A stretch of 64,000 nucleotides of DNA from assembly GCA_035541455.1 (NCBI GenBank), contig DATKNH010000013.1:4780-68779 (forward strand). Reading direction: 5' to 3'. Positions 15,437 to 61,965 of the stretch are shown here, one piece after another; the stretch's first letter is position 1; every line of letters starts with the position of its first letter. The notes beneath the pieces are model-generated. The model was not told where the DNA came from. It did not search any database and saw only the letters and a program-made list of their open reading frames with translations. Origin of the DNA: Syntrophorhabdales bacterium. Lineage in GTDB: Bacteria > Desulfobacterota > Syntrophorhabdia > Syntrophorhabdales > WCHB1-27. The translations under genes were made by a program, and so were the position numbers.

Positions 15437-15455
15437 AAAGTCGCGAGACTGGATC

Positions 15456-38221: not shown

Positions 38222-38247
38222 AACAATTCCTCCTTCGTAGTGAATAC

Positions 38248-38373
38248 AGGTTAAGGATAGAACAAGGTGAAGGCAGAAGCAGGCAGAGGAAAAAACGAAA
38301 TAAAGGTTGAGACAAAGCGTACACCACTTTCGTTTTTATCTTAACCTTCGCTTCAGCCTTTACCTCAACCTGC
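38248..38373. repeat. Intercistronic hairpin repeat, copy E2
   Basis: Left arm AGGTTAAGGATAGAACAAGGTGAAGGCAGAAGC pairs with right arm CGCTTCAGCCTTTACCTCAACCT. An inner AAAAACGAAA / TTTCGTTTTT pair is present. Shares 10-mers with E1 (ACCTCAACCT, TTTCGTTTTT) and words with E3 (AGGTTAAGG, AGGTGAAGGC). Confidence 0.75.
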
Positions 38374-38397
38374 TTTATCTTTTTCCTGTTTTCTGTC

Positions 38398-39792: not shown

Positions 39793-39833
39793 TAATAAGC
39801 CCTCCTTAAGGAACACATTTCACGCTAGAGTAA

Positions 39834-40811: not shown

Positions 40812-40905
40812 TTTGATCCTCCCACGCTCTTGCTGGTCGCTTGTCTCCTGCAAGATGCTCAAGGCTGTTCACCGCTTACCCCTGACTGCTCACTTGCTGC
40901 TGCTC

Positions 40906-42201
40906 TTAGGCCACTCCCGGTATGATATTGCCCCCTGAGGGGAAGATCGCAACATCAGCCTGCGGCATCTTGTTCGCAGCCATATCCACTGCCTCGGGGA
41001 GCGTGCGAGCGTGAGTGAACTTCATCATCCGTACGGTCTCTGTCGGCAGCCCTTCGGTGACGTGTATCACGTCAAACTTCTCTGCGAGTTCCTTGAAGAA
41101 GACCACCTGCATAATATACGAGATGCCAAACGAGGTTAGCTGGTCGGGAATCTTCCCGGCGATCAACCTGCGGTGAAAATCAGTGGCGGTTTCAGAACTC
41201 GCCATCTCCTGGACGAGAGGCAGTATCGGACCGGCCTCCTTTTGAGGGGCGACCCAGATGATGATGCCTCCCGAACGGGTGCAGTAGCCGGCCATGGTCA
41301 GGGCCTTGGTAGCCTGCACGGCGATTTCCAGGGGATACGCCGACGTGATCGTCACATCAGCGACCTTGGCAAGAGGAACGAAGTAAAGGGACGCCGCGAA
41401 CTTGGCAGCCTCTCTGTGCTCAGCCACCGTTTCTCCTGCGAACGCGCGAATGATTTCTTTCCTGTCGTTGATGACGAGATCGAGCTTGAACGCGAGCCGT
41501 GCCAGTCGTCCTGCGTCGGTGATCTCTTCGTAAAAAGGATTGCCGTCCATCACGTTTACTTTGGCATATCGATGACGAATCCAGGCGAAATGATGATCTG
41601 CTACTGCCCGATAGGAACAGACGCCGGGCATTATAATCTTGTTTCCGCCACCGAAGCCTGCAGTGGGATGCGGCATACACTCACCAACGCCCACGATCAG
41701 GTCAGCAAAGGCCACGTGAGGGTTGATCTCGATCAGAGCGCCCCTGTGGGTTCGACCGATGACAACGTTTTGTGTGGAGTAGGGATCGTGGGAGACGAGC
41801 CGTTCACCCAACCGTTTTGCGACTTCCTCGCCCGCCTTTTTCTTCAGCTGTTCATATGATAGGACCGGGTGTGTTCCCAGGGCACATACCGCAGTCATGC
41901 GCGAATCAGGAATCCCCGCGCGGTTAAGGCGGTTCATCAATTCAGGCAGCGCCAGGTGTGCGGGTGTCGGCCGCTGAAGATCGTCGAACAGCAGCACGAC
42001 ATCCATCCCGGGCTTAGCAAGCTCCTCCAGCCTTGGCCCTCCTACGGGATTGTCGAGCGCCCTCTTGATTTCGGCTACAGGATCGGCTACGCCTGGAACT
42101 GTCGGCTTGTCCTGATCAGAGAGTACTTTCCACCCCGGGGGTAAAGAGAAGCACATCTGCTTTCCCTCGCAGATGACGTAACGTTCACGTGCCTCGGCCA
42201 T
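40906..42201 (-). CDS. LarA-family (nickel-pincer nucleotide-dependent) 2-hydroxyacid racemase/epimerase homolog
   Basis: 431 aa. ALGTHP plus CMPHPTAGFGGGNKIIMPG correspond to the LarA catalytic His and the H..GF.GG.K cofactor-tethering Lys motif (DUF2088 domain). Confidence 0.75.
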   Translation of the reverse strand: MAEARERYVICEGKQMCFSLPPGWKVLSDQDKPTVPGVADPVAEIKRALDNPVGGPRLEELAKPGMDVVLLFDDLQRPTPAHLALPELMNRLNRAGIPDSRMTAVCALGTHPVLSYEQLKKKAGEEVAKRLGERLVSHDPYSTQNVVIGRTHRGALIEINPHVAFADLIVGVGECMPHPTAGFGGGNKIIMPGVCSYRAVADHHFAWIRHRYAKVNVMDGNPFYEEITDAGRLARLAFKLDLVINDRKEIIRAFAGETVAEHREAAKFAASLYFVPLAKVADVTITSAYPLEIAVQATKALTMAGYCTRSGGIIIWVAPQKEAGPILPLVQEMASSETATDFHRRLIAGKIPDQLTSFGISYIMQVVFFKELAEKFDVIHVTEGLPTETVRMMKFTHARTLPEAVDMAANKMPQADVAIFPSGGNIIPGVA

Positions 42202-42204
42202 CTA

Positions 42205-43209
42205 TCACCTCGTCTTGGTAAGTAATTTCTTCAACTCGGGAGTTGTCTTGGGAGCTTTTTCCATCAACTCTGCCCATCCCGCATCATACGCTGTTTTCAG
42301 GAATTTTTCGCTTTCAGCAGGGGAGAGTTGGATGACCTCGATGCCTTCCTTCTGCAGTATAGGGCGTTCCTTCTTCTTCAGATCGTCGAAGAGTGCGACT
42401 GCTTTTTTCTCGCCTTCCACTGCAGCCTCATTCAGGATATCCTGAAGCTTCTTCGGCAAACCATTGAATGTCTTCTGGTTGATGAGGACGGGATTGGGCA
42501 CGTTGTAGAACCCCGGCTCGACGACGTATTTCGTTACCTTGTCCCAGCCCCAGTCGCGGATCCCGACAGAGGGCCAGCAATAACCGTCCACAACATGGCG
42601 TTCCAGTGCCGCGTATACTTCTGTCGGTGGTATCACCACCGGGTTCCCGCCCAGGGTCTTTATTGCCTGCAGCTGGTTTGCAGATACCCTGATGTTCAAC
42701 CCTTTTAAATCGGCGCTCTTGATCGGCTTAACCAGATAAAGGTGAAATTTGAGATCGAGTCCGAGCCTCGCCTGGTAACGAAGCCCTAGCCTCTGTTCAT
42801 GGAGCGTGTTAAAGTACGCCCAGGCTCCGCTCGCCCTTTCCTCCATGGGTGTCATCGTGGAAAGCTTCATTGCATCCGCTTCGGGGAGCACCGAGAGATA
42901 GTAGGCGTTTGTAGTGAAGACCATATCCACCATGCCGCGCTGCGCAGCTGCCACCTGCTCGTTTGTCTTCACAGCTTCCGGGCCGCCGATGTACTGAATT
43001 TTCAACTCACCCGGCGCCTTCTTCGCTACAAGCTGTTCGACCAGGTCGGTGAAAATGAAGAAAGCCTGGTTATCTGTGGCTGTTTTTGGCCAGGCGGTCA
43101 CTGCCTTGAGGGTGACAGATTCAGCAGCCCGAGCAACAGGGGTGTGGACGGTAAATACAGAAGCCATGAAAATAACTGTGCAGAAAAGAATGAATGATCC
43201 CTTTTTCAT
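42205..43209 (-). CDS. dctP: TRAP substrate-binding protein, DctP family (paralog group member 1)
   Basis: 334 aa with a signal peptide. Close paralog of 43290-44294 and 57166-58158 (shared blocks GGPEAVK, LGGNPVV, VVDGY). Confidence 0.85.
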   Translation of the reverse strand: MKKGSFILFCTVIFMASVFTVHTPVARAAESVTLKAVTAWPKTATDNQAFFIFTDLVEQLVAKKAPGELKIQYIGGPEAVKTNEQVAAAQRGMVDMVFTTNAYYLSVLPEADAMKLSTMTPMEERASGAWAYFNTLHEQRLGLRYQARLGLDLKFHLYLVKPIKSADLKGLNIRVSANQLQAIKTLGGNPVVIPPTEVYAALERHVVDGYCWPSVGIRDWGWDKVTKYVVEPGFYNVPNPVLINQKTFNGLPKKLQDILNEAAVEGEKKAVALFDDLKKKERPILQKEGIEVIQLSPAESEKFLKTAYDAGWAELMEKAPKTTPELKKLLTKTR

Positions 43210-43289
43210 CGGTGGCCTCCCTTCAAGTTTCTGTGCAGCCCGTATTTGTCTGAGCCGGACCGCCTTTACTCTACCGTGATATACCTGAC

Positions 43290-44294
43290 TTACTTTCCGG
43301 TCTTCTTTGTCAGTAACTTTTGCAGTTCAGGGCCTGTTTTCGGGTTGTTCTTTATCACGTCTTTCCAGCCCTCGTCGTAGGCTATTTTGAGGAATTTCTC
43401 CTTCTCGGCCGGAGGAAGCTCGATCACCTGGATACCGGCCTTTTTCAGAAGAGGGATCTCTTTCTTGCCTTCCTCCTCATAATAGGCGACAGTCTTTCTT
43501 TCCGACTCCATGGCGGCCTCTGTGAGCACATCCTTGAATTTCTTAGGCAGCGCATTCCATGCTTTCAGATTCATGATGAGAGGATGCGGTCCTGAATAAA
43601 ATCCCGTATCGACGATGTACTTGGTCTGCTTCTCCCATCCCCACTCCCGGATCGTCACGAGGACAAAGCAATATCCATCTACCACTTTGCGCTCGAGCGC
43701 CTGGTACACGTCGCTCGGTGGAATGACCACTGGATTACCGCCAAGGCCCTTGATGACCTGAAGATACATGGGAGAGACTCGAATGTTGAACCCTTTAAGG
43801 TCGGCCGTCTTTATCGGTCGTGTCAGGTAAAGGTAAAACGGCGCATCTATACCGAGTCTACCCAGAAGGTAAAGGCCTTTCTTTTCGTGCAAGTCATTGA
43901 AGTACGCCCAGGCTCCGTTTGCCCTCTCCTCCCATGGTTTGAAGTCCGAGAGCTTCATAGCATCGACCTCGGGAACTTCAGAGACATAGTACGCGTTGGT
44001 CGTATGGACGATATCAACCATGCCGGTCTGAGCAGCGTGCGCCTGGTCCTGGATCTTGACCGCTTCGGGACCACCGACGAGGTTCAGTTTCAGCTCGCCG
44101 GGATATTTCTTCGCCACCTGTTGCTCGACGCTGTCCATGAAATAAAAAAGTGATTTGTTGTCGGTGGTGTTTTTTGGCCAGGCAGTGACGACCTTCAGCG
44201 TGATTGTCTGTGCGTTGGCGATACCGTGTATCGTACAAGCAAAAAAGAATAAGGCAACGACTGCAGCAAAAAGAAAGCCTGCTTTCTGCTTCAT
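43290..44294 (-). CDS. dctP: TRAP substrate-binding protein, DctP family (paralog group member 2)
   Basis: 334 aa. Collinear similarity with the two other members along the full length. Confidence 0.85.
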   Translation of the reverse strand: MKQKAGFLFAAVVALFFFACTIHGIANAQTITLKVVTAWPKNTTDNKSLFYFMDSVEQQVAKKYPGELKLNLVGGPEAVKIQDQAHAAQTGMVDIVHTTNAYYVSEVPEVDAMKLSDFKPWEERANGAWAYFNDLHEKKGLYLLGRLGIDAPFYLYLTRPIKTADLKGFNIRVSPMYLQVIKGLGGNPVVIPPSDVYQALERKVVDGYCFVLVTIREWGWEKQTKYIVDTGFYSGPHPLIMNLKAWNALPKKFKDVLTEAAMESERKTVAYYEEEGKKEIPLLKKAGIQVIELPPAEKEKFLKIAYDEGWKDVIKNNPKTGPELQKLLTKKTGK

Positions 44295-44364
44295 AATTCC
44301 TCCTCATTTATTGTTTTCTGCCTCACTAGACCCGTGTCCCTTGACCCCTGATCCTATTTTTCAG

Positions 44365-45687
44365 TTACTTCACCATACCCATAAGTGCCGGAACCACAGT
44401 TGCTATTGATGGTACGGCGAGCACGATCCCAATGCAGAGCAAATCTATTATGACGTAAGGGGTTACCGCCCTCCATATATCTCCCATCGTTACGTCGGGA
44501 GGCGCCACGCCTTTCATCACGAAGAGCGTAACACCAAAGGGTGGGGTAATCAAGCCTGTCTCAAGGGCGATCAGCATCATCACGCCGAACCAAACCGTGT
44601 TGAACCCGAGCGCAGTGACCACGGGCATGTAGATAGGAATGGTGATCATCATGATCGCCACCGTTTCCATGAAACAGCCCATGATGAGCACGACCACGAG
44701 CATACCGACGAGTATTATCAACGGGTGAATGCTGAGGCCGGTGATATAGCCGGTCATACCGGCAGCGGCACCGGTGAAGGCCAGTATCTCGCCATACGTG
44801 CTCGACACGATGATGATCATGAATATCATGGACGTCACTTTCACCGTGCCCATGACCGACTTCTTCATTATGTCCCACGTGAGGCGTCTGTAACATATGG
44901 CAAGGATGAAGGAGCCCAATGTTCCTGTTGCCGCAGCTTCGGTCGGCGTTGCCACACCTAGGAAGATAAGGCCTATGACCATGAAGATGATGAAGCCAAG
45001 AGGCAGCAGATAGACGAAAGTGACCCGTATTTTTTCCTTCAACGGCACGTGTGCGACTTCATACATAGGCGCTTCATTGGGGAAGAGATGGCACCATCCC
45101 AGGACATATACAAAATAGAGGGATGACATGATAATGCCCGGCAATATGCCGGCGATCAGGAGCTGCCCCACATCGATATTCGCGAGGCTCGCAAGCACCA
45201 CCGTGAGGGCGTTAGGAGGGATAAGGGCGTCTACCGTTCCAACTCCCATGAGTGGGCCGAGGCTCATGTTCTTGCTGTACCCCCTTTTCAGCATATCGGG
45301 AAGCAGGATTGTACCGAGGAGTGCGCATGTGGCAATCGTGGAACCGGAGAGTGCTCCTATGATCACTCCCATGATGACTGCAAGGATCGAGAGCCTGCCT
45401 TTGAGCTTGCCGAGCCATTTGTCAAGGACATTGACTGCATCGAGTCCCATGCCCGAGTGAAAGATAAGCTCTCCCATGAGAATGAAGAAGGGCACGGGGA
45501 GCAGGGTAAATGTGGTGATGGAGGTGAAAACACCCGTGACCACGCCTATCAGGCCCGGTATCCCGCCGAGGAAGAAGTAGGCGGCCACCATGTTGACAAT
45601 GAGAAAGGCAAAGGCTATGGGCACGCCTGTGAGGAGCAGGAATACCATGCCTCCGAAGAGTATACATATGGTCGTATACCATTCCAT
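44365..45687 (-). CDS. dctM: TRAP transporter large permease
   Basis: 440 aa, highly hydrophobic. Typical DctM length and N-terminus (MEWYTTICILFGGMVFLLLTGVPIAFAF). Confidence 0.9.
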   Translation of the reverse strand: MEWYTTICILFGGMVFLLLTGVPIAFAFLIVNMVAAYFFLGGIPGLIGVVTGVFTSITTFTLLPVPFFILMGELIFHSGMGLDAVNVLDKWLGKLKGRLSILAVIMGVIIGALSGSTIATCALLGTILLPDMLKRGYSKNMSLGPLMGVGTVDALIPPNALTVVLASLANIDVGQLLIAGILPGIIMSSLYFVYVLGWCHLFPNEAPMYEVAHVPLKEKIRVTFVYLLPLGFIIFMVIGLIFLGVATPTEAAATGTLGSFILAICYRRLTWDIMKKSVMGTVKVTSMIFMIIIVSSTYGEILAFTGAAAGMTGYITGLSIHPLIILVGMLVVVLIMGCFMETVAIMMITIPIYMPVVTALGFNTVWFGVMMLIALETGLITPPFGVTLFVMKGVAPPDVTMGDIWRAVTPYVIIDLLCIGIVLAVPSIATVVPALMGMVK

Positions 45688-45690
45688 GGG

Positions 45691-46185
45691 CTACCTCCCC
45701 GCCTTGATTTCGGCAACCCTGCTCCAGGCCATTCGGAAGAACTGGATGGTAAGGAGGATGCTCCCCACAGGGATAATGACAAAGACGGTCCATTTCGGGA
45801 TGGTAACGGCGCGTACGTCAGTGATGCCGCGCTGGATGCACTCTATCATGTAGGTGATGCTGAAATAGACCATGACGATACAGGCAACTCCGGAGATTAT
45901 GAACATGGTGCAGTCAAGGTAACCTCTTGTCTTGTCATTGAGGTGGCTGTATATGATGTCCGTGGTGATGTGACCGCCCTCTCTGAGAAGCCACGTGGTT
46001 CCGAGGAAGACGATCCATAGTAATGCATATTCGGTCGTCTGCATGATCCATATTGTCGTGCGCGTGAATAAGAACCGCATGCCTATCGTGTAGCAGACGG
46101 CAGCACAAATGAAGACCAGTATCACACCCGCAAGCGCAGCCATTATATCCAGCAATCTGTCGAACCCTTTCCAGAAACCCGCCAT
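45691..46185 (-). CDS. dctQ: TRAP transporter small permease
   Basis: 164 aa with 4 TM segments, immediately upstream of dctM. Confidence 0.85.
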   Translation of the reverse strand: MAGFWKGFDRLLDIMAALAGVILVFICAAVCYTIGMRFLFTRTTIWIMQTTEYALLWIVFLGTTWLLREGGHITTDIIYSHLNDKTRGYLDCTMFIISGVACIVMVYFSITYMIECIQRGITDVRAVTIPKWTVFVIIPVGSILLTIQFFRMAWSRVAEIKAGR

Positions 46186-46239
46186 AGTCAGTTCCCCCTG
46201 CGTCGTCTTAAAATAACCGGACCTTCATCCGGTGCCTCA

Positions 46240-46935
46240 TCACGTCTGTCTTCGTTTGATCTTTTCCTCCCCATGCTCGCGGAACGCGTAAAACAGTATG
46301 TCTTTCTTTGATTGCTCGAGGTGATTCCTGATGGCCTTTGCAGCTGTCTCCACATCGCCTGTCACGATCGCTGCCAGTATCTCCTTGTGGCCGTTTATTC
46401 CCCGGATAACATTGTCCGGCGCATAGATGCTCTGGATCCTGTAACGCACCATGTGGCGCCTCAGGGTCTGTGCCAGTTCCAGGAGTCTCCTGCTTCCGCT
46501 CAGTCCAGCGATAATTTCATGGAACTGGGCATCGAGGTCCACGTATGCTTTCACCTCGCCCTGCATCACCCGCTGCTCGGCTGTCGCAATGTTTTTCTTG
46601 AGCTCCTTGACTAATCTCGCGTGGGCCTTTTCCATAGCCCATCGAACAGCCAGGGTTTCGATGACTGTTCTGATCTCGCATATTTCCTCGACTTCCTGGT
46701 CGCTCACCGTATTTACTTTATAGCCGACACGGGGTATCGATTCCAGAAGGCCTTCCATTTCGAGGGTGTGAAGAGCCTCTCTGACGGGTGTCCTCGATGT
46801 GCCTATATCTTTTGCGATCTTCGCTTCAATGAGGCGCTCTTGCGGACCTATCTCACCGCTGAGGATCTGCTCCCTCAAATACGCATGGACCTTCTTGCGG
46901 ATGGTGGTGCTATCGGTGATGATGAGTTTTTTCAT
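46240..46935 (-). CDS. GntR-family (FadR/FCD subfamily) transcriptional regulator
   Basis: wHTH region RLIEAKIAKDIGTSRTPVREALHTLEMEGLLESIPRVGYKV plus a helical FCD-like C-terminus. Start is either the ATG at 46935 or the TTG at 46944. Confidence 0.85.
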   Translation of the reverse strand: MKKLIITDSTTIRKKVHAYLREQILSGEIGPQERLIEAKIAKDIGTSRTPVREALHTLEMEGLLESIPRVGYKVNTVSDQEVEEICEIRTVIETLAVRWAMEKAHARLVKELKKNIATAEQRVMQGEVKAYVDLDAQFHEIIAGLSGSRRLLELAQTLRRHMVRYRIQSIYAPDNVIRGINGHKEILAAIVTGDVETAAKAIRNHLEQSKKDILFYAFREHGEEKIKRRQT

Positions 46936-46964
46936 AAGAACCAAGCTTGAAGCTTACGGCTCGA

Positions 46965-47079: not shown

Positions 47080-47985
47080 TCAACAGATTCCTCTTTCCTG
47101 CGCTACCAGGTGTTCCCAGTCTTCATCCACCTGCTTCTGTAGCCTTGCCACATCCTCATTGGTAAAGTGGCGGTATCTGCCCTGAATCTTCGTGTATTCG
47201 CTCACCGGCAGACCTTGAGGCTGGTGCGTAATCCGGTATTCCCTTCCATCTATGATCTCGTAGAGCGGGAAGATCTTTGTCTCGACAGCAAGCATTGCTG
47301 ATTTCGCGGAGAGTTCTTCAGGCATTCTCCAGCCCGTGGGGCAGGGTGTCAGCGTATGAATGAAGCGTGTGCCCTTGATTCTTTTCGCCTTTTCCACCTT
47401 GGCCATGAGATCGTGAGGATGACCGAAAGACGCGGTGGCTGCGTAAGGCATGCGATGCGCGGCAATGATCTGCATGAACTTCTTTTTCTTGCCGTGCCTG
47501 CCGCCGGGTGTGGTCATGGTCCAGACGTTCTGGGGGGTCGACGAGCTGGACTGGATACCTGTGTTCATGTACGCCTCGTTATCGAGGCAGATATAGATGA
47601 AGTTGTCATCCCGGTCTGCTGCGCCCGACAGAGATTGGAGCCCTATGTCGAACGTGCCGCCATCGCCTGCAAATGCAACAGGAATAATATCATCTCGTCC
47701 CTGGACTTTGAGCGCGTTGGCTATGCCGGCTGCTGTGGGTGCGGCGATCTCGAACGCCGAATGAAAGCAGGGCACCTCAAAGACACTGTTGGGGTAATTT
47801 GCACTGATGGGACCCACGCATGAAGGGATCATGACCACGATTGTATTCTTCCCCAACACCTTCATGACGAGCCGAATAGTGCTGGCGAGGCCGCACCCCG
47901 GGCAGGCCATGTGGCCTGACCGCATATATTCCATCTCCGTGCCCATGTCTAGTGTTTCTGTAGCCATGTTTCTCTCCTTACCCAT
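47080..47985 (-). CDS. 2-oxoacid:ferredoxin oxidoreductase beta (TPP-binding) subunit
   Basis: CPGCG near the N-terminus, then AFAGDGGTFDIGLQSLSGAADRDDNFIYICLDNEAYMNTGIQSSSSTP (TPP motif). The exact start is uncertain because it overlaps the alpha-subunit stop. Confidence 0.85.
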   Translation of the reverse strand: MGKERNMATETLDMGTEMEYMRSGHMACPGCGLASTIRLVMKVLGKNTIVVMIPSCVGPISANYPNSVFEVPCFHSAFEIAAPTAAGIANALKVQGRDDIIPVAFAGDGGTFDIGLQSLSGAADRDDNFIYICLDNEAYMNTGIQSSSSTPQNVWTMTTPGGRHGKKKKFMQIIAAHRMPYAATASFGHPHDLMAKVEKAKRIKGTRFIHTLTPCPTGWRMPEELSAKSAMLAVETKIFPLYEIIDGREYRITHQPQGLPVSEYTKIQGRYRHFTNEDVARLQKQVDEDWEHLVAQERGIC

Positions 47986-49118
47986 ACTGGTAAATCGGTC
48001 GGTTTGTCATGCTGTAGAGCTTCGAGCACCATGTCTTCAATCATCTCCGGTGAGACGTCTGCGCCGCAGATGCCCGCAATGTAGCCAGTCACGGTAGGTC
48101 TTTTTACGAGCGGATAGAGTGCCGACTTTAATTCGTGGCAGAATATGCCTTCCTTGCCAAGGGATATATTCCGGTCGAGCACAGCTACCTTCGGTACATT
48201 CTTCAAAGCCCCCTGCACTTCTTCTGTAGGGAAGGGCCTGAAGGCTTTTATCTTGAGGAGTCCCGCTTTGCAGCCTTTGCTTCGCAAGGACTCTATCGCT
48301 ACACGTGCAGTGCTCGTCATGGCGCCGCTCGTCACCAGGACGATTTCGGCATCGTCAGTATTCACAGCCTCCACCACACCGTACCCCCTCCCCACGATCT
48401 GGCGGTATTCCCTGTTTGCCTCCTCAATGACAGGCCGCGTCTTCTCCATATCCCTGAAGCTTGTCTCCCGATAGACCATGTACTGCTCCGGGCTCACCAC
48501 GTTTGAAATGAACGCGGGGTCTTCAATGTTAAATCTGGTGGGAATGCTGAAGGGCGGCAGAAAGGAATCCACTGCCTCCTGGCTCGGTAACTCAATTGGT
48601 TCCATGAAGTGAGATGTGAAAAAGCCGTCGATTGCCACCATGACGGGGAAGAGCGTCTGTTCTGCTATCTTATATGCTTGGATGACCGTGTCGAGCGCTT
48701 CCTGGGCGTCCTCGCAGTAGAACTGCAGCCACCCGGTATCGCGCTGGGAGAGGCTGTCCGATTGATCGCTGCCGAACGCCCAGGGAACAGCGACTACACG
48801 ATTCACATTGCACATGACAATAGGCACTCTGTTTCCAGAAGCAAAGTGGAGCATCTCATGCATGAGGGCGAGCCCCTGAGAAGCTGTGGCGGTAAAGGTG
48901 CGCACGCCCGTGAGGGAGGCGGCAATGCAGGCTGCCATAGCAGAATGTTCCGATTCTGTCCGCATCATCACGCCGGTCAACTTTCCTTCAAGCTCCATAT
49001 CAGAAAGCTTTTCGTAAATAGGCGTTTGCGGGGTGATGGGGTATGCGGCTACCAACTGAACTCGTGCAAGGCGAACGGCTTCAGCCACTGCGTAATTTCC
49101 CTGAAGAAGTTGTTTCAT
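47949..49118 (-). CDS. 2-oxoacid:ferredoxin oxidoreductase alpha subunit
   Basis: Start at MKQLLQGNYAVAEAVRLARVQLVAAYPITPQT. The ATG overlaps the stop of the upstream gene (ATGA at 49115-49118). Confidence 0.85.
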   Translation of the reverse strand: MKQLLQGNYAVAEAVRLARVQLVAAYPITPQTPIYEKLSDMELEGKLTGVMMRTESEHSAMAACIAASLTGVRTFTATASQGLALMHEMLHFASGNRVPIVMCNVNRVVAVPWAFGSDQSDSLSQRDTGWLQFYCEDAQEALDTVIQAYKIAEQTLFPVMVAIDGFFTSHFMEPIELPSQEAVDSFLPPFSIPTRFNIEDPAFISNVVSPEQYMVYRETSFRDMEKTRPVIEEANREYRQIVGRGYGVVEAVNTDDAEIVLVTSGAMTSTARVAIESLRSKGCKAGLLKIKAFRPFPTEEVQGALKNVPKVAVLDRNISLGKEGIFCHELKSALYPLVKRPTVTGYIAGICGADVSPEMIEDMVLEALQHDKPTDLPVWVRRETWLQKH

Positions 49119-50884
49119 GTGCCAGCTCCTGTGGTTGCTCCTATCTCTATCACATTGCGTGGGCAGCTCGTGGCGCAAATGCTGCAACCCTTGCAGTAGT
49201 CCATCTTAACGGTGTAACCTTTTTTGCCTTCCTTCACCAGAGAGATGTCAGGACAGAGCAGGAAGCAAAGATCGCACTCTGTGCATGTCCCACACTTGAA
49301 GCATCGCTCGATTTCGTTCGTCATCTGCGACGGATCAATGCCGCCCGCGACCTCTTTAAAGCTCTTTACCGCTCGCTTCGGCGAGAGCCGGTCAGGCGCC
49401 ATTGCACGTTCTCCGCGAGAGAAACAAAGGGTGTTTATCTTCTCATACGGAACGACTTTCTTGAGATCAATCTGGTAATCTCCCTGATGCATAATACTTT
49501 GGAATGAGAAGGCGGGTTTCTCACCAATTTGATGGCTTTGAAACTCTTGTCCGAAATCGATGCCTTCGATGTAGCAATGTATGGCCAAAGCGCCTGTCTT
49601 TCCGCTCGCAATGGCATCTGCAACGAATGCCTTCGTTCCTGCGCTATCTCCGCCAGCGAATATCCCTTCGATATTCGTTTCCGCGCGTTCAGGAGAAATA
49701 GCGATAACGCCGTTTCTGCCCAAACGAATTCCAACTCCATTTGTGAACTGGAGATCCGGCACCTGTCCTATGGCTCCGATGACGGTATCTGCCGGCAGAT
49801 CGAATTCAGATCCCGGAAGAGGAAGGGGCTGTGCTCTTCCGCTTTCGTCTAGTGCTCCCAATGTCATGCGCATGCACTCGATTTTCGAAAGCCGGGTACC
49901 ATCACCGATCAGCCGTTTCGGCGCAGCAAGGACATCGATCTTTATCCCTTCGCGCTCCACGGCTGCCACGTCTTCGGGGAGAGCCGGCATCTCTTTTTGT
50001 GAGCGGCGGTATATGATGGTCACTTCTTCTGCGCCAAGACGCCGTGCGACCCGCGCACAATCAATGGCCGTGTTGCCGCCTCCTATCACAGCTACTCTCT
50101 TGCCCACAGCTATTTGTTCCCCGAGATTAACACTCCTGAGAAAACCCATGCCTTCCATCACGCCGGGGAGTTCCTCTCCCTCGATGCTCAGGCGCATTCC
50201 CTTATGGGCGCCTGCGGCAATAAAGATGGCCTGGTGCTTGTCTCTAATCTGTTCGAGAGAAATGTCGTTGCCGACGCGAACTCCCGTTGTTATCTGCACG
50301 CCCAATTGCTCTATGTAACCTATCTCCTTGCGCAGGATAGCTTTCGGTAGTCGGTATTCTGGGATGCCATAACGGAGCATGCCCCCTGCTTCAGGCAGAG
50401 CCTCGAAGATTGTGACAGGATAACCAAGTCGCGCCAGATGGTAGGCAGCGCTCAACCCCGCCGGTCCGGAGCCGATTACAGCGACTTTCGCCTTTCTTTT
50501 TTGGACCTGAATTTCCCTCTTTGTGTCGACTTTGCCGTGGTCGGCCAGAAAGCGCTCGAAGCCACGAATGTTGATCGCTTCATCAAATTCTTTCCGGTTG
50601 CAGTCAGATTCGCACGGGTGATAGCAGACCCTCCCGCAGACACCGGGTAGAGGATTATCCTGACGAAAGATGCGTAATGCAGCGTCGTGGTTACCCAGAG
50701 ATGCCTGACTGAATGCACGGGCAATATCATTGCCTATAGGGCATCCTCGCCGGCAGGGCGATGTCTTCTCCGCGTAAAACGGTTTCTTGCTGCTCCAGTG
50801 ACCTGTAAAAAAAACCTCGGTGGTTCCTCTGGAGAAGGGAATTATAGGCTCTATGTCTTTTATCCCTATGGTGCGATGGCTCAT
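49115..50884 (-). CDS. Fusion protein: GltD/NfnB-like NAD(P)H flavoprotein plus C-terminal 2x[4Fe-4S] OFOR delta-subunit-like domain
   Basis: 589 aa. The N-terminus has Cys clusters and VAVIGSGPAGLSAAYHLARLGYPVTIFEALPEAGGMLRYGIPEYRLP (GltD pattern). A second dinucleotide fold is VAVIGGGNTAIDCA. The C-terminus is CFKCGTCTECDLCFLLCP...CKGCSICATSCP. Confidence 0.8.
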   Translation of the reverse strand: MSHRTIGIKDIEPIIPFSRGTTEVFFTGHWSSKKPFYAEKTSPCRRGCPIGNDIARAFSQASLGNHDAALRIFRQDNPLPGVCGRVCYHPCESDCNRKEFDEAINIRGFERFLADHGKVDTKREIQVQKRKAKVAVIGSGPAGLSAAYHLARLGYPVTIFEALPEAGGMLRYGIPEYRLPKAILRKEIGYIEQLGVQITTGVRVGNDISLEQIRDKHQAIFIAAGAHKGMRLSIEGEELPGVMEGMGFLRSVNLGEQIAVGKRVAVIGGGNTAIDCARVARRLGAEEVTIIYRRSQKEMPALPEDVAAVEREGIKIDVLAAPKRLIGDGTRLSKIECMRMTLGALDESGRAQPLPLPGSEFDLPADTVIGAIGQVPDLQFTNGVGIRLGRNGVIAISPERAETNIEGIFAGGDSAGTKAFVADAIASGKTGALAIHCYIEGIDFGQEFQSHQIGEKPAFSFQSIMHQGDYQIDLKKVVPYEKINTLCFSRGERAMAPDRLSPKRAVKSFKEVAGGIDPSQMTNEIERCFKCGTCTECDLCFLLCPDISLVKEGKKGYTVKMDYCKGCSICATSCPRNVIEIGATTGAGT

Positions 50885-50918
50885 CTATCCACTCCTTATG
50901 GGCCCTTGTGAAGGCAAA

Positions 50919-51461
50919 TCAGTAAAAGAGTTGCGTCAACTCGTAAGCCTTTTTTGCCGCAGCTACGTTGGCCGAAACTTTTGCCGGGACCGACTCCTTA
51001 ATTACTTCTTCCAAAAGATCCATGGGCACCGCGTTGCTGGCTTTTGCATAAGCGCCCAGCATAGCTGTATTGATCGTAGCCCCCAATCCCAGAGACTCAG
51101 AGACGGAGAGTGCGTCGATAAGAGCCAAACGAAACTTCTTCAACGCTTGAAAATCTCTGTCGGTCAGAGCATTGTTTATGAGCAGGAGCCCTCCGGGCTT
51201 AAGCATTGACTCAATCTCTCTTTCGTCCACAAGATCAGGCGCCATGTAAATCATCTGGTCCGGTGCGGTGATCTCGCATTTCAGAAGGATCTTCTTGTCG
51301 TCCACCCTGAGAAAGCTGGCAACCGGGGCGCCTCTGCGTTCGCCGCCGAAAACGGAGAAGCACTGAGGGTACTTCCCCATGGTGAAAAAAACCCTTGCAA
51401 GGATCTGAGACGCGATGACCGCGCCCTGTCCTCCTCTGCCGAAGAACTTTATCTCAATCAT
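50919..51461 (-). CDS. 2-oxoacid:ferredoxin oxidoreductase gamma subunit
   Basis: MIEIKFFGRGGQGAVIASQILARVFFTMGKYPQCFSVFGGERRGAPV is the canonical gamma-subunit N-terminus. Confidence 0.9.
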   Translation of the reverse strand: MIEIKFFGRGGQGAVIASQILARVFFTMGKYPQCFSVFGGERRGAPVASFLRVDDKKILLKCEITAPDQMIYMAPDLVDEREIESMLKPGGLLLINNALTDRDFQALKKFRLALIDALSVSESLGLGATINTAMLGAYAKASNAVPMDLLEEVIKESVPAKVSANVAAAKKAYELTQLFY

Positions 51462-51505
51462 CTGGGCCTCTGCTTTATTTCAAAGAATGGGGGATGTTTA
51501 TTGGG

Positions 51506-51604
51506 ATACTGTACCCCAATAACCGGGGTGTGTCAAGGAAGGCGGAAAGAAACGTCTTTCGCCCTGGCAAAACCTTTTGACACCCGAGCAAAAATACTGT
51601 ACCC
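51506..51604. promoter_or_regulatory. Divergent promoter region with two copies of an 11-mer candidate GntR operator
   Basis: ATACTGTACCC occurs at 51506-51516 and 51594-51604. The first copy is embedded in TTATTGGG-N9-CCCAATAA and overlaps a minus-strand TTGACA-N17-TACAGT. The second follows a plus-strand TTGACA (51577-51582). Confidence 0.5.
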
Positions 51605-51626
51605 TAGATGCGCTACAAGAAAGACA

Positions 51627-52313
51627 ATGAAGCAGCATATCATCAACTTCAAAATAGAAAAGCAACCCCACCTGCGGAAAATCGTTTATGAACGGTTGAA
51701 AGATGCAATTCTTACCGGTTCGATTCCGAAAGGTACGAAACTCTACGAATCAAAAATTGCAGAGGAGACGGGCATAAGCCGGACTCCGGTGAGGGAGGCG
51801 CTTCATGCCCTCGAGCGGGAACTGCTCATCACTGCAATCGACAAGGTGGGTTATCAAATAGTCGATGCAGATGTCCAGGACCTTGAAGAGATCTCGGTAC
51901 TAAGAAAAACCGTCGAGACCCTTGCCCTAAAAAAGGCGATTGACAGTATAGGGGAGACTGAGATACGCAGGCTGGAGACGAATCTCAAGCAGGCGGAAAG
52001 AGCTTTGAAAGAGTACAAAGGTGATCTCTTTATCCAGCTGGATGCGGAGTTCCATCAGGTATTATGCTCCCTGAGTCATAGCGAGCGCCTGATAAGGATG
52101 GCAGATGCGCTGCGGAAGGAAATGCACAGATTCAGAAGGCGTACAAAACTGGACCACGAACTGGCTGAGGAATCCCTCAGGTACCACCAGAAAATAGTCA
52201 ATTTCCTGAAACTGAAGGATTATAGAAACGCGAAGAAAGCGCTGAACGACCATATCGATCACGCAAGAAGAAAGACCGAGAAGGAGTTCCTGGGAGGGTT
52301 GAGAGTGCAATGA
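51627..52313 (+). CDS. GntR-family (FCD) transcriptional regulator
   Basis: Start at MKQHIINF. wHTH region KLYESKIAEETGISRTPVREALHALERELLITAIDKVGYQI. Its stop overlaps the next gene start (ATGA). Confidence 0.85.
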   Translation: MKQHIINFKIEKQPHLRKIVYERLKDAILTGSIPKGTKLYESKIAEETGISRTPVREALHALERELLITAIDKVGYQIVDADVQDLEEISVLRKTVETLALKKAIDSIGETEIRRLETNLKQAERALKEYKGDLFIQLDAEFHQVLCSLSHSERLIRMADALRKEMHRFRRRTKLDHELAEESLRYHQKIVNFLKLKDYRNAKKALNDHIDHARRKTEKEFLGGLRVQ

Positions 52314-52867
52314 AAGAGATACGGTTACACGGCAGGGGAGGGCAAGGGGTAGTGATGGGCGCTGAAATGCTGGCATACGCGTTTGTCCTCGAGGGCAAGT
52401 ACGCTTCTTCGTTCCCGACCTTCGGGGCAGAACGCAGAGGAGCGCCTGTGGCGGCTTTTCTTCGCTGCGATGAAAAACCGATAAGGGAGACTCACCAGAT
52501 TTATGATCCCGATTGTATTATGTGCCTGGATCCTTTTATAGGAAGATCGCAAGAGATCTTCAACGGATTGAAAGGGGACGGCATTGCAATTATTAATACC
52601 CCGAAGCTGAAGCTGGAGAAATGGCCTGACGCGCTCAAAATGCTGGGCCTGATTGATGCAACCGCCCTGGCTCTTGATGAGATAGGCAGGGCGATCGTCA
52701 ACACGTGCATGCTCGGCGTGATAGCAAAGGTTACGGGATGGGTAAAGCTGGAATCTGTGATAGCAAGCCTCGACATGAACTTCGAAGGAAAGTTGTTGCA
52801 GAAAAACATAGACCTGGTGAGACGCGGCTACGACAGTGTCGCAATTTCAGTAAGGAGCACCACATGA
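52310..52867 (+). CDS. OFOR gamma subunit; PadE-like (phenylglyoxylate:NAD+ oxidoreductase-type operon)
   Basis: [47 protein letters not shown]. 185 aa. Confidence 0.85.
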   Translation: [185 protein letters not shown]

Positions 52868-53130
52868 AATTCATCAGCAAATTTGAAGGACCCTGGTCGA
52901 CACCAAGTGAGCCGCTCGATGTCAAAACAGGGGAATGGAGGTCGCAGAGGCCGGTTACAAGGAGTGAGAAGTGCCGTCAGTGCGGCTGGTGCTTCATCTT
53001 CTGTCCGTGCGGCTGCAGGAAAGAAACAGGACATTTCTTTTCTGCTGATCTCGATTATTGTAAAGGCTGCGGAGTCTGTGCCAGAGTCTGCCCGGCCAGA
53101 GCAATTGCACTGGTGAGGGAGGAAGTCTGA
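52864..53130 (+). CDS. OFOR delta subunit (2x[4Fe-4S] ferredoxin); PadF-like
   Basis: 88 aa from MKFISKF (ATGA overlap with gamma). CRQCGWCFIFCP and CKGCGVCARVCP. Confidence 0.8.
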   Translation: MKFISKFEGPWSTPSEPLDVKTGEWRSQRPVTRSEKCRQCGWCFIFCPCGCRKETGHFFSADLDYCKGCGVCARVCPARAIALVREEV

Positions 53131-54335: not shown

Positions 54336-54341
54336 AGTGAG

Positions 54342-54423
54342 GGGCTAGCGCTAGCGGCAAAGGGCTAATGGCTCATGGCTTCAAACCTTTTGTCCTTGGG
54401 CCCTTTGCCTTTAGCCGGTTTTT
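54342..54423 (+). terminator. Intra-operon hairpin followed by a T-run (attenuator/terminator-like), word-repeat style
   Basis: GGCAAAGGGC (54356-54365) is perfectly complementary to GCCCTTTGCC (54400-54409). An outer pair GGCTAG / TTAGCC is present. It is followed by GGTTTTT and then the GAGGAGAG RBS of the next gene. Confidence 0.55.
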
Positions 54424-54437
54424 AGAGGAGAGATGCT

Positions 54438-55715: not shown

Positions 55716-55728
55716 AAGAGGGCTGAAC

Positions 55729-57087: not shown

Positions 57088-57165
57088 GCGATGGAACATG
57101 AAGGGGCTGAATTGAAAGCGTCGCTGAAAGCTCACGACTGAAACGCTCAAAATAGGGAGGTAGCA

Positions 57166-61782: not shown

Positions 61783-61820
61783 CGCACCCTCCTTTCTTCC
61801 GATGGGCGATCGCTCACTGC

Positions 61821-61950: not shown

Positions 61951-61965
61951 TCTTCCATCTGTCTT

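What the first reader, a model, noticed from the sequence alone, without database searches (positions are those of the whole stretch)
47080..51461. OFOR operon whose ferredoxin-like delta subunit is fused to a GltD/NfnB-like NAD(P)H flavoprotein
The gene order is gamma (180 aa), a 589-aa fusion, alpha and beta, with ATGA coupling between the fusion and alpha. The fusion has a GltD-type N-terminus with Cys clusters and two dinucleotide-binding folds. It ends with CFKCGTCTECDLCFLLCP...CKGCSICATSCP, the 2x[4Fe-4S] module that is normally the free-standing delta subunit. Inference: electrons from 2-oxoacid oxidation would be wired directly to NAD(P)+, or in reverse drive NAD(P)H-dependent reductive carboxylation, without a diffusible ferredoxin. 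Because GltD/NfnB-type modules occur in bifurcating enzymes, a confurcating or bifurcating role cannot be excluded.
Basis: partly seen in the sequence, partly recalled or inferred. Interest (0 to 1): 0.55.

Follow-up and report, generated by a model that had tools for sequence, protein, structure and literature searches.

The report
OFOR with built-in NADPH flavoprotein module
This four-gene operon encodes a 2-oxoacid oxidoreductase whose small iron-sulfur (delta) subunit carries an inserted, rearranged NADPH-flavoprotein module, so the enzyme most likely passes electrons to NADP+ itself instead of to free ferredoxin; the family is widespread in databases, but I found no biochemical study of it.

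Summary
On the minus strand lie gamma (51461-50919), a 589-aa Fe-S flavoprotein (50884-49115), alpha (49118-47949, ATGA overlap) and beta (47967-47080). It is not an assembly artefact: the same single ORF and gene order occur in 13 of 13 independent loci (40-80% identity). The protein also matches NCBIfam NF009410 end to end.

The architecture is not a simple GltD-then-delta fusion. A complete PorD-type delta subunit is split by a ~490-aa NfnL/GltD-like cassette that is circularly permuted. Residues 1-41 are the delta N-arm. Residues 505-531 are the first 27 positions of the Fer4_20 domain, carrying the two otherwise missing cluster ligands (C528, C531). C531 lies three residues before C534, the first cysteine of the delta ferredoxin core. 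All 16 motif cysteines, Glu110 and a YRR (NADP) motif are conserved.

Most likely function: a ferredoxin-independent, CoA-acylating 2-oxoacid:NADP+ oxidoreductase for a TRAP-imported 2-hydroxy or 2-oxo acid, possibly aromatic. No second electron path (NfnS or Bfu partner) is present, so bifurcation is unsupported though not excluded. NADPH-driven carboxylation is thermodynamically unlikely. The fusion has been noticed in databases and once in passing in the literature. I rate it a new variant of a known kind, of moderate interest.

The parts
51508..51536 (-). promoter-like site (TTGACA-17-TACAGT) about 47 nt upstream of the gamma start codon
   Evidence: It is the best of 9 consensus matches, but the region has no more matches than shuffled sequence, so this is weak evidence.
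50919..51461 (-). OFOR gamma subunit (180 aa)
   Evidence: PF01558 at 6e-35. TIGR02175 PorC_KorC scores 158.7 bits, above its cutoff of 81.1.
49115..50884 (-). 589-aa delta subunit carrying the inserted NfnL/GltD-like NADPH flavoprotein cassette (whole gene including the stop codon)
   Evidence: NF009410 scores 551.9 bits, above its cutoff of 516, over the full length. For the domains.
50762..50884 (-). residues 1-41: N-terminal arm of the PorD-type delta subunit (PFSRGTTEVFFTGHWSSKKP; family consensus NKTGSWRxxRP)
   Evidence: Splice test. Residues 1-41 joined to 534-589 score 72.3 bits on TIGR02179 (cutoff 60.05, model positions 7-74). Linker, reversed or shuffled arms score 52.4-52.9 bits. 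The motif is present in 33 of 42 distant full-length representatives.
50534..50761 (-). residues 42-117: Fer4_20 positions 28-108, with C44, C48, C83, C87, C91, C95 and E110
   Evidence: The alignment to T. maritima NfnB (4ylf_B) gives C44=C47, C48=C51, C87=C90, C91=C96, C95=C100 and E110=E117. All are invariant in 118 relatives.
49565..50497 (-). residues 130-440: FAD and NADP(H) binding domains (GSGPAG at 138, GGGNTA at 268, Y292-R293-R294)
   Evidence: Pyr_redox_2 at 1e-35. The AF2 core has pLDDT above 85 and matches P. furiosus NfnL at rmsd 2.4 A over 432 columns. YRR is conserved in 113-114 of 118 relatives.
49373..49564 (-). residues 441-504: linker
   Evidence: The region aligns with the linker of Thermococcus sibiricus Nfn-Bfu NfnA, 9n5u_A. 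Model confidence here is low.
49286..49372 (-). residues 505-533: relocated first segment of Fer4_20 (F509-K-E-V...E524..R527-C528-x-x-C531). It is equivalent to the NfnB 'RC39xxC42' segment that supplies two ligands of the distal cluster.
   Evidence: The chimera of residues 495-531 plus 40-125 scores 92.5 bits on Fer4_20 (model positions 2-108). The native N-terminus scores 63.8 bits and a control join 64.4 bits (model positions 28-108 for both). F509, E524, R527 and C531 are invariant and C528 is conserved in 117 of 118 relatives.
49118..49285 (-). residues 534-589: delta ferredoxin core, with two CxxCxxCxxxCP motifs (C534/537/540/544 and C564/567/570/574)
   Evidence: Matches to PorD_Arch, TIGR02179 and the PFOR delta chain 9bt4_G.
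47949..49118 (-). OFOR alpha subunit (389 aa). Its start codon overlaps the stop codon of the flavoprotein gene (ATGA).
   Evidence: POR_N and PFOR_II. The best solved relative is M. acetivorans PFOR alpha, 9bt4_B, at 1e-84. Scores are below the PorA/VorA equivalog cutoffs.
47080..47967 (-). OFOR beta subunit (295 aa from the ATG behind AAGGAG; the ORF is open from 47985). It has a TPP motif (GDG...NEAYMNTG) and Cys22/25/50/209 for the proximal [4Fe-4S] cluster.
46240..46944 (-). GntR/FCD-family regulator, co-oriented and syntenic with the operon
   Evidence: It is conserved downstream of beta in most of the close loci.
42205..46185 (-). TRAP transporter: DctQ 45691-46185, DctM 44365-45687, DctP 43290-44294 and DctP 42205-43209
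   Evidence: TRAP genes are syntenic in the 10 loci compared by tblastn, down to 40% identity of the flavoprotein. The best solved relative of both DctP proteins is 4mnc_A, at 2e-51 and 1e-49.
40906..42201 (-). LarA-like nickel-pincer 2-hydroxyacid racemase homologue, 3 nt downstream of the second DctP gene
   Evidence: Lar_N and LarA_C. The best NCBIfam hit is malate racemase LarAH6 at 275 bits, below its cutoff of 500. It sits at the same position in L009.

Best explanation
The operon encodes a four-subunit POR/VOR-type 2-oxoacid oxidoreductase with an altered electron-exit (delta) subunit.

A complete PorD-type delta subunit (N-arm residues 1-41, ferredoxin core residues 534-589) is interrupted by a ~490-residue NfnL/GltD-type module. 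That module holds two [4Fe-4S] clusters, FAD and an NADP(H) site. It is circularly permuted, so its chain enters and leaves at its distal [4Fe-4S] cluster.

Inferred electron path: TPP (alpha/beta), then the beta [4Fe-4S], the two delta [4Fe-4S] clusters, the module's distal [4Fe-4S] (C528, C531, C44, C95), its proximal [4Fe-4S] (C48, C87, C91, E110), then FAD and finally NADP+.

Inferred net reaction: 2-oxoacid + CoA + NADP+ gives acyl-CoA + CO2 + NADPH, without diffusible ferredoxin and without bifurcation. The step is strongly exergonic and could pull the preceding 2-hydroxyacid oxidation.

The substrate is unknown. The conserved TRAP transporter, the GntR/FCD regulator and the LarA-like racemase point to an imported 2-hydroxy or 2-oxo acid. 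The aromatic-catabolic neighbourhood makes an aryl 2-oxoacid a reasonable guess.

Shown here: gene order, domain order, the permutation, ligand conservation and synteny. Inferred: the acceptor, the direction, the cluster connectivity and the substrate.
For: Architecture
- Fer4_20 matches the N-terminus only from model position 28.
- Grafting residues 495-531 in front restores model positions 2-108 and raises the score from 63.8 to 92.5 bits. A control join scores 64.4.
- Deleting residues 42-533 leaves a 97-aa protein that passes the PorD_KorD cutoff (72.3 against 60.05). Three control arms score 52.4-52.9. Four other family members gain about 29-36 bits.

Ligands
- The alignment to NfnB 4ylf_B assigns six ligands. 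NfnB C39/C42 have no N-terminal counterpart (ligand list from PMC7596348).
- All 16 motif Cys, plus E110 and R527, are conserved in 118 close relatives. The motif Cys and the Glu ligand are also invariant in 31 diverse relatives.
- 33 of 42 distant representatives carry KTGSWRxxRP. None has the canonical upstream CxxC. Nearly all have RCxxC seven residues before the C-terminal ferredoxin motif.

Integral OFOR part
- There is no other delta gene in the operon.
- Gamma/flavoprotein/alpha/beta is conserved in 13 of 13 loci.
- Rosetta-stone proteins: gamma + cassette (P0169) and IorA-like + cassette (P0230).

NADP(H)
- YRR is conserved in 113-114 of 118 relatives. PMC7596348 links this motif to NADP preference.
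- The fold core matches NADPH-binding NfnL 5jca_L.

Non-bifurcating precedent
- The closest solved relatives are the NfnL-like domains of Bfu NfnA (9n5u, 9bov). There the FAD only feeds NADPH electrons into an Fe-S chain (PMC12018979; PMC11829005).

Direction
- E0' is about -500 mV for the 2-oxoacid couple and -320 mV for NADP (PMC9304861).
- The synteny is catabolic.
Against: - There is no biochemical, expression or structural data for any member. I found none in the literature held.
- The AF2 model is unreliable exactly where it matters: pLDDT is below 50 for residues 1-44 and 484-589. Cluster-to-cluster geometry therefore rests on sequence logic and on homology.
- Discarding about 35 kJ/mol by sending -500 mV electrons to NADP+ is odd for an energy-limited syntroph. 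That keeps coupled schemes alive.
- The Glu ligand of the proximal cluster (E110) is the NfnL (bifurcating) type, not the Lys of Bfu NfnA.
- The distal cluster of NfnL is the ferredoxin site in NfnSL, so free ferredoxin could still exchange electrons there.
- YRR is missing from roughly 40% of the distant representatives.
Confidence: 0.6

Rival explanations
1. Confurcating or bifurcating enzyme. The NfnL-type FAD would merge low-potential electrons from 2-oxoacid oxidation with electrons from a higher-potential donor to make two NADPH. The donor could be NADH via an unlinked NfnS-like partner, or the upstream 2-hydroxyacid oxidation. In reverse, the FAD would split NADPH electrons.
For: - The module belongs to the NfnL lineage and keeps the Glu ligand (E110) typical of bifurcating NfnL.
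- The energy otherwise lost is large.
- 2-hydroxyacid-handling genes (LarA-like, GlcD/GlcF-like) recur next to the operon.
Against: - No NfnS/PyrK-like, Etf-like or BfuBC-like gene lies in the operon, in the 64-kb window or in the 13 loci examined.
- In the closest solved relatives (Bfu NfnA), the homologous FAD is not the bifurcation site.
Confidence: 0.13
2. Dual-outlet enzyme. It would still be an OFOR reducing free ferredoxin, now at the cassette's distal cluster. The FAD/NADPH site would act as a built-in ferredoxin:NADP+ oxidoreductase valve, so electrons partition between ferredoxin and NADP+ according to redox state.
For: - In NfnSL, ferredoxin is thought to dock near the distal cluster of NfnL (PMC5861303).
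- That cluster sits at the junction with the delta core here.
- DsrL, which has the same domain order, is described as an NAD(P)H:acceptor oxidoreductase working in either direction (PMC7596348).
Against: - The junction geometry may bury the distal cluster.
- There is no ferredoxin gene in the operon.
- Nothing distinguishes this idea from the main explanation without assays.
Confidence: 0.17
3. An anabolic 2-oxoacid synthase driven by NAD(P)H (reductive carboxylation of an acyl-CoA).
For: OFORs are reversible in principle.
Against: - The reaction is about 180 mV uphill from NADPH without a coupling partner.
- The operon is conserved with an uptake transporter, a carboxylate-sensing GntR/FCD regulator and a racemase, which is a catabolic context.
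Confidence: 0.04
4. Assembly or gene-calling artefact that joins a gltD-like gene to porD.
For: None was found.
Against: - The same single ORF appears in independent assemblies from NCBI, ENA, JGI and Logan.
- There are 599 clusters at 50% identity for the C-terminal module alone.
- The protein passes a full-length NCBIfam model.
- The delta N-arm lies at the far N-terminus. No simple join of two genes could produce that.
Confidence: 0.01

Closest known systems
DsrL (Fe-S flavoprotein, NAD(P)H:acceptor oxidoreductase partner of DsrAB; Loffler et al. 2020, PMC7596348)
   Same: - Same domain order as described there: N-terminal two-cluster domain, FAD with an embedded NAD(P) domain, a ~100-aa linker and a C-terminal 2x[4Fe-4S] ferredoxin domain.
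- Glu ligand on the proximal cluster.
- YRR marks the NADP-preferring forms.
- Same logic: a ferredoxin-like domain couples a low-potential enzyme to pyridine nucleotides.
   Different: - The partner here is an OFOR, not DsrAB.
- That paper explicitly excluded DsrL-like genes adjacent to pyruvate/ketoisovalerate:ferredoxin oxidoreductase genes. This family was therefore seen and set aside.
- Here the N-terminus is a PorD arm and the C-terminal domain is a PorD core.
- I could not test whether DsrL is also permuted, because no DsrL sequence was available.
NfnL/NfnB of NfnSL, and the NfnL-like domain of Bfu-type NfnA/StnC (4ylf, 5jca, 9n5u, 9bov, 8oh5)
   Same: - Closest solved structures.
- The same FAD/NADPH core and the same two [4Fe-4S] clusters.
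- Bfu NfnA and E. coli YgfK share the permuted order, with RCxxC after the flavoprotein body. In Bfu NfnA the module is an internal (middle) domain of a larger Fe-S protein.
   Different: - No NfnS partner and no BfuB/BfuC core.
- The host protein is the OFOR delta subunit.
- The proximal-cluster ligand is Glu (as in NfnL), not Lys (as in Bfu NfnA).
Phenylglyoxylate:NAD+ oxidoreductase PadEFGHI (Hirsch et al. 1998, cited in PMC5109826; NCBIfam NF045762-NF045766)
   Same: - An OFOR of the POR/VOR type wired to a pyridine nucleotide by an added flavoprotein.
- A Pad-like operon lies right next door in this window.
   Different: - PadH is a separate NirB/rubredoxin-reductase-type flavoprotein, and PadI carries an extra N-terminal ferredoxin domain.
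- Here a GltD/NfnL-type module sits inside delta, and beta is plain.
Other pyridine-nucleotide-linked OFORs: pyruvate:NADP+ oxidoreductase of Euglena/Cryptosporidium, 2-oxoglutarate:NADP+ oxidoreductase of Azoarcus evansii (both from my own knowledge, not checked here), and the predicted Por-Bfu (PMC9304861)
   Same: The same overall reaction type: 2-oxoacid oxidation coupled to NAD(P)+.
   Different: The flavoprotein modules are unrelated (CPR-type, other types, or BfuABC), and they are attached at different points.
NCBIfam NF009410 (PRK12771) 'NAD(P)-binding protein'
   Same: The window protein is a member: 551.9 bits, above the cutoff of 516, over the full length.
   Different: The model carries only a generic name. 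JGI product names vary between 'GltD-like oxidoreductase' and '2-oxoacid:acceptor oxidoreductase delta subunit'.

Membership tests
Four-subunit POR/VOR-type 2-oxoacid:ferredoxin oxidoreductase | alpha subunit with POR_N and PFOR_II domains | tested here: met
   PF01855 at 2e-66 and PF17147 at 2e-27. The best solved relative is PFOR alpha 9bt4_B at 1e-84.
Four-subunit POR/VOR-type 2-oxoacid:ferredoxin oxidoreductase | beta subunit with a TPP-binding motif and four Cys for the proximal [4Fe-4S] cluster | tested here: met
   PF02775. The GDG...NEAYMNTG motif and Cys22/25/50/209 are in the translation. That these four Cys are the cluster ligands is by analogy with PorB and PFOR.
Four-subunit POR/VOR-type 2-oxoacid:ferredoxin oxidoreductase | gamma subunit (POR domain) | tested here: met
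   TIGR02175 scores 158.7 bits, above its cutoff of 81.1.
Four-subunit POR/VOR-type 2-oxoacid:ferredoxin oxidoreductase | delta subunit: PorD-type N-arm plus a 2x[4Fe-4S] core | tested here: met
   It is met only after removing the insertion in silico. The spliced protein (residues 1-41 plus 534-589) scores 72.3 bits on TIGR02179, above the cutoff of 60.05. Control arms score 52.4-52.9 bits.
Four-subunit POR/VOR-type 2-oxoacid:ferredoxin oxidoreductase | free ferredoxin as the electron acceptor | not testable with these tools
   This needs an enzyme assay. The architecture suggests that NADP+ takes the place of ferredoxin.
Pyruvate-, 2-oxoisovalerate- or phenylglyoxylate-specific equivalogs (PorA/PorB, VorA/VorB, PadG/PadI) | score above the equivalog cutoff | tested here: not met
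   PorA_Arch 426 against 550; VorB-type beta 355 against 405; PadG 280 against 700; PadI 221 against 700. Substrate specificity therefore cannot be assigned.
NfnL/GltD/DPD Fe-S flavoprotein module | Fer4_20 two-cluster domain plus FAD and NAD(P)H Rossmann folds | tested here: met
   The Fer4_20 domain is complete only when residues 505-531 are counted.
NfnL/GltD/DPD Fe-S flavoprotein module | canonical linear order (RCxxC segment at the N-terminus) | tested here: not met
   The module is circularly permuted.
Bifurcating NfnSL (NfnAB) | NfnS/NfnA partner ([2Fe-2S] plus FAD, PyrK-like) providing the second electron path | tested here: not met
   No such gene lies in the operon, in the window or in the 13 loci examined. 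A partner encoded elsewhere in the genome cannot be excluded.
Bfu-type NfnABC/Stn | BfuB (NuoF-like, FMN) and BfuC core subunits | tested here: not met
   Absent from the operon and from the window.
DsrL | domain order: N-terminal two-cluster domain, FAD/NAD(P), linker, C-terminal 2x[4Fe-4S] domain | tested here: met
   judged against the definition in PMC7596348.
DsrL | encoded in a dsrAB organism or locus and not adjacent to POR/VOR genes (criteria 1 and 3 of Loffler et al.) | tested here: not met
   The gene lies between OFOR gamma and alpha genes. No dsr genes are in the window.
PadEFGHI phenylglyoxylate:NAD+ oxidoreductase | separate PadH flavoprotein and PadI beta with an N-terminal ferredoxin domain | tested here: not met
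   This operon has neither. The neighbouring plus-strand operon has both, at sub-cutoff scores.
NCBIfam NF009410 (PRK12771) | full-length score above the cutoff | tested here: met
   551.9 bits against a cutoff of 516; residues 7-583 on model positions 13-564 of 566.

The most novel reading that the evidence does not exclude
The complex is an energy-conserving confurcating enzyme. The NfnL-type FAD would combine the -500 mV electrons of 2-oxoacid decarboxylation with electrons from a weaker donor, producing two NADPH per substrate. The weaker donor could be the preceding 2-hydroxyacid oxidation, or NADH through a partner encoded elsewhere. That would make it a new class of flavin-based electron confurcation built directly into an OFOR.
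Probability: 0.1. Interest if true: 0.85.

Novelty: new variant of a known kind. Interest (0 to 1): 0.5.

Why it matters
OFORs are normally treated as ferredoxin enzymes in metabolic reconstructions of anaerobes. This family is large: at least about 600 clusters at 50% identity, and thousands at 90%. It occurs in Syntrophorhabdales and other Desulfobacterota (deltaproteobacterial) lineages and in Acidobacteriota. If it sends 2-oxoacid electrons straight to NADP+, ferredoxin and NADPH budgets in many MAG-based models of syntrophs are wrong for these steps.

The insertion-plus-permutation design also shows how a portable NADPH-to-Fe-S module can be plugged into an Fe-S subunit exactly at its exit cluster. 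The same permuted module occurs in Bfu NfnA and in E. coli YgfK. That may explain the 'missing' cysteine ligands reported for relatives such as DsrL.

The enzyme is a compact candidate for engineering ferredoxin-free 2-oxoacid/acyl-CoA chemistry.

Tried and rejected
1. Structure. The AF2 model from a 54-sequence alignment gave a confident flavoprotein core. Residues 1-44 and 484-589 had pLDDT below 50, so it says nothing about how the delta parts and the relocated segment pack. Foldseek only confirmed the NfnL/NfnA relatives.

2. Substrate via the binding proteins. Both DctP proteins have 4mnc/4mni as by far their best solved relative. I recall that this entry (Polaromonas Bpro_4736) was solved with bound benzoylformate, but I could not verify it:
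   - The papers held do not say.
   - A single-sequence AF2 model of DctP was too poor (pLDDT 38) for a fold search to return the entry title.
   I treat it as an unverified lead.

3. Substrate via alpha and beta. All equivalog scores are below their cutoffs. Pocket residues aligned to D. africanus PFOR (R107 = Arg114 is kept; W113/F115 replace Leu121/Ile123) are too weak a basis for a call.

4. A PaaK-like ligase and a Mo-oxidoreductase lie upstream in L012. They looked like a Pad pathway but score far below any specific model.

5. The genome-contig scan with the single protein returned only close MAG relatives and no cultured organism.

6. Literature. Seven full-text searches aimed at the fusion, its relatives or a characterisation found no biochemical study. 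The only direct mention is the exclusion criterion in the DsrL paper. Three papers that might bear on this are not held: Pereira et al. 2011, Andersson and Roger 2002, and Ebenau-Jehle et al. 2003.

7. I rejected the assembly-artefact reading and the simple tandem-fusion reading.

Full report
**1. The observation**

The minus strand between 51461 and 47080 carries four tightly packed genes.
- Gamma (180 aa) is a POR-family domain and passes TIGR02175.
- A 589-aa ORF follows 34 nt later.
- Its TGA overlaps the ATG of alpha (ATGA). Alpha has POR_N and PFOR_II.
- Beta (TPP_enzyme_C) overlaps the end of alpha. Its most likely start is the ATG at 47967, behind AAGGAG.
- No other ferredoxin-like ORF lies in the cluster.

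The 589-aa protein has Fer4_20 (41-117) and Pyr_redox_2 (133-428) with GSGPAG and GGGNTA folds. It ends in a dicluster ferredoxin motif. The best named matches of that end are PorD models and the delta chain of a solved four-subunit PFOR, 9bt4_G.

**2. Not an artefact, and not rare**

- An identical protein is on record from a Syntrophorhabdales MAG.
- More than 100 clusters with 59-80% identity have the same length.
- The protein passes the full-length NCBIfam model NF009410/PRK12771, 'NAD(P)-binding protein'.
- A search of 1.84 billion representatives with only the last 149 residues gave 599 clusters at E<=1e-10. The full-length ones are mostly 540-610 aa, with the module at the C-terminus.
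JGI calls many of them either 'GltD-like oxidoreductase' or '2-oxoacid:acceptor oxidoreductase delta subunit'.
- In all 13 independent loci examined, the order gamma/flavoprotein/alpha/beta is kept. Flavoprotein identity in these loci is 40-80%, and they come from Syntrophorhabdales, Syntrophobacterales, Desulfobacterales, Acidobacteriota and unbinned contigs.

**3. What the protein really is**

Aligned to T. maritima NfnB (4ylf_B), six ligands of the two N-terminal clusters are present: C44=C47, C48=C51, C87=C90, C91=C96, C95=C100 and E110=E117. NfnB's C39 and C42 have no counterpart upstream of C44 (ligand list from PMC7596348). Pfam Fer4_20 accordingly matches only from model position 28.

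The missing segment lies behind the flavoprotein body. It reads F509-K-E-V...E524-x-x-R527-C528-x-x-C531.
- Placing residues 495-531 in front of residue 40 restores Fer4_20 positions 2-108 and raises the score from 63.8 to 92.5 bits.
- An equally long piece of linker gives 64.4 bits.

The NfnL/GltD-like module is therefore circularly permuted.

The first 41 residues are the N-terminal arm of PorD. Here they read PFSRGTTEVFFTGHWSSKKP; the wider family consensus is NKTGSWRxxRP.
- Deleting residues 42-533 in silico leaves a 97-aa protein that scores 72.3 bits on TIGR02179 PorD_KorD (cutoff 60.05; model positions 7-74 of 78). It scores 74.8 bits on PorD_Arch.
- Linker, reversed or shuffled arms score 52.4-52.9 bits on TIGR02179 and 55-60 bits on PorD_Arch.
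- Four other family members gain about 29-36 bits from their own arms.

The gene thus encodes a whole delta subunit with a ~490-residue permuted NADPH-flavoprotein cassette inserted between its arm and its ferredoxin core.

Conservation fits this reading.
- All 16 motif cysteines (six N-terminal, ten C-terminal; enough for four [4Fe-4S] clusters together with E110) are conserved in 118 close relatives, as are E110 and R527. The motif cysteines and the Glu ligand are invariant in the 31-member diverse alignment.
- The same permuted order is visible in the NfnL-like middle domain of Bfu-type NfnA (9n5u_A aligns with residues 36-541) and in E. coli YgfK.
- The same cassette, again starting at Fer4_20 position 28, occurs fused behind a gamma domain (P0169) and inside an IorA-like protein just before its ferredoxin domain (P0230).

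**4. How it most likely works**

C531 is the last ligand of the cassette's distal cluster. C534 is the first ligand of the delta core. They are three residues apart, so the two clusters must be neighbours. This is inference from sequence; the AF2 model is unreliable in these parts.

From my recollection of the D. africanus PFOR structure, the first CxxCxxC of the ferredoxin domain binds the outermost, ferredoxin-facing cluster. If that holds here, the cassette is plugged in exactly at the OFOR's electron exit.

The resulting chain runs from TPP to the beta cluster, the two delta clusters, the distal cluster, the proximal cluster, FAD and then the nicotinamide site. YRR (292-294), which PMC7596348 associates with NADP preference, is conserved in 113-114 of 118 relatives. 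The core superposes on NADPH-binding NfnL.

With E0' near -500 mV for the 2-oxoacid couple and -320 mV for NADP (PMC9304861), the oxidative direction is strongly favoured. NADPH-driven carboxylation is not.

Bifurcation needs a second path from the FAD. No NfnS-, Etf- or BfuBC-like gene is in the operon, the window or the related loci. In the closest solved relatives, the homologous FAD merely injects NADPH electrons into an Fe-S chain (PMC12018979).

I therefore favour a non-bifurcating, CoA-acylating 2-oxoacid:NADP+ oxidoreductase (confidence 0.6). Two live alternatives remain: a ferredoxin/NADP+ dual outlet (0.17) and a confurcating scheme (0.13).

**5. Substrate and context**

The cluster continues on the same strand with these genes:
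- a GntR/FCD regulator
- DctQ and DctM
- two DctP proteins
- a LarA-like 2-hydroxyacid racemase homologue (best NCBIfam hit malate racemase, below cutoff)

TRAP genes follow the operon in the 10 loci compared by tblastn, even at 40% flavoprotein identity. In other loci the position of LarA is taken by a GlcD-like FAD oxidase. More distant operons sit next to GlcD/GlcF-like, IlvD/Edd-like or acyl-CoA dehydrogenase genes.

This fits a route from 2-hydroxyacid to 2-oxoacid to acyl-CoA, with family members differing in substrate. Alpha and beta fall below every equivalog cutoff, so specificity is open.

Hints of an aromatic substrate:
- The organism belongs to the Syntrophorhabdales.
- UbiD-family decarboxylases and phenylphosphate-synthase-like genes are in the window.
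- A Pad-like operon lies next door.
- Both DctP proteins are most similar to 4mnc. I recall that this structure holds benzoylformate, but I could not verify it.

**6. Comparison with what is known**

- Working principle: like PadEFGHI, Euglena PNO and Azoarcus KGOR, which are OFORs coupled to NAD(P)+. The last two are from my own knowledge.
- Domain logic: like DsrL.
- Membership: it is a POR/VOR-type OFOR and a member of NF009410.
- It is not DsrL, because it fails the locus criteria. Loffler et al. explicitly excluded such POR/VOR-linked genes.
- It is not PadEFGHI, NfnSL or Bfu, because their defining partner subunits are absent.
- I found no functional study of this family in the literature held. 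Several relevant older papers are not in the library, so an existing description cannot be excluded.

**7. Verdict**

- The finding is real.
- The wiring idea is well supported by architecture and synteny but untested biochemically.
- The reverse and bifurcating options are weakly supported.
- The new element from this analysis is that the 'fusion' is an insertion of a circularly permuted NfnL-type cassette into the delta subunit.
- The family is common and already catalogued under generic names.
- I rate it a new variant of a known kind, interest 0.5.

Noticed in passing
window 51501-58158 (+): A divergently transcribed second OFOR operon. It has a GntR/FCD regulator, gamma, a free delta (52867-53130), alpha, a NirB/rubredoxin-reductase-type flavoprotein (54438-55715), a beta with an N-terminal Fer4_11 domain (55729-57087) and a DctP. 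The best NCBIfam hits for delta, alpha, the flavoprotein and beta are PadF, PadG, PadH and PadI, all below the equivalog cutoffs. Two differently built pyridine-nucleotide-linked OFORs therefore sit back to back. The pairing is kept in L001 and L002.
   Followed up: partly
P0169 (732 aa) and P0230 (1131 aa): Natural fusions of the same permuted cassette. P0169 has a POR gamma domain, then the cassette, then a ferredoxin core. P0230 has an IorA-like POR_N + TPP_enzyme_C, then the cassette, then a ferredoxin domain. In both, Fer4_20 again starts at model position 28.
   Followed up: partly
L015 8061-11159 (E. coli K-12 ygfK): YgfK shows the same permuted order: ...APCVTAC..., then the flavoprotein body, then ...EAARCLEC, followed by a C..C...CP ferredoxin-type motif. 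The relocated RCxxC segment is therefore a general feature of 'internal' GltD-like modules. It may account for ligands reported as missing in relatives such as DsrL.
   Followed up: partly
window 1249-9804 (-): A UbiD-family protein (1249-2667), a UPF0261 protein (4193-5425), a PPDK_N protein (6778-7875) and a PEP-utilizers-domain protein (7963-9804). The set resembles phenol-activation genes (phenylphosphate synthase/carboxylase type), with a LysR regulator at 2870-3757 (+).
   Followed up: no
window 37199-40862 (-): Directly downstream of the LarA-like gene lie a TAXI-family TRAP binding protein (39834-40862), a UbiD-family decarboxylase (38398-39816; best NCBIfam hit the generic UbiD subfamily TIGR00148 at 292.8 bits, then VdcC-type hydroxyarylic acid decarboxylase at 235 bits, below its cutoff of 650) and another DctP (37199-38221). 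They may belong to the same catabolic unit.
   Followed up: no
window 40906-42201 (-): The LarA homologue falls below every characterised LarAH family cutoff: malate racemase LarAH6 275 against 500, and LarA 231 against 460. Its substrate is unknown. In related loci its position is taken by a GlcD-like FAD oxidase.
   Followed up: partly
window 13545-20369 (+): A cluster of DUF5752, a TreT-type trehalose synthase/glycosyltransferase and two alpha-amylase-family proteins (614 and 1016 aa). It looks like compatible-solute or glucan metabolism.
   Followed up: no
window 58873-63930 (-): A 969-aa CheB-methylesterase/CheR-methyltransferase/PAS fusion, followed by a PAS-rich hybrid histidine kinase with a receiver domain.
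   Followed up: no
window 46216-46233 (-): A terminator-like hairpin lies between the GntR gene and dctQ. The OFOR genes plus the regulator may therefore be one transcript, with the TRAP and LarA genes read through or separately controlled. This is a consensus match only.
   Followed up: no
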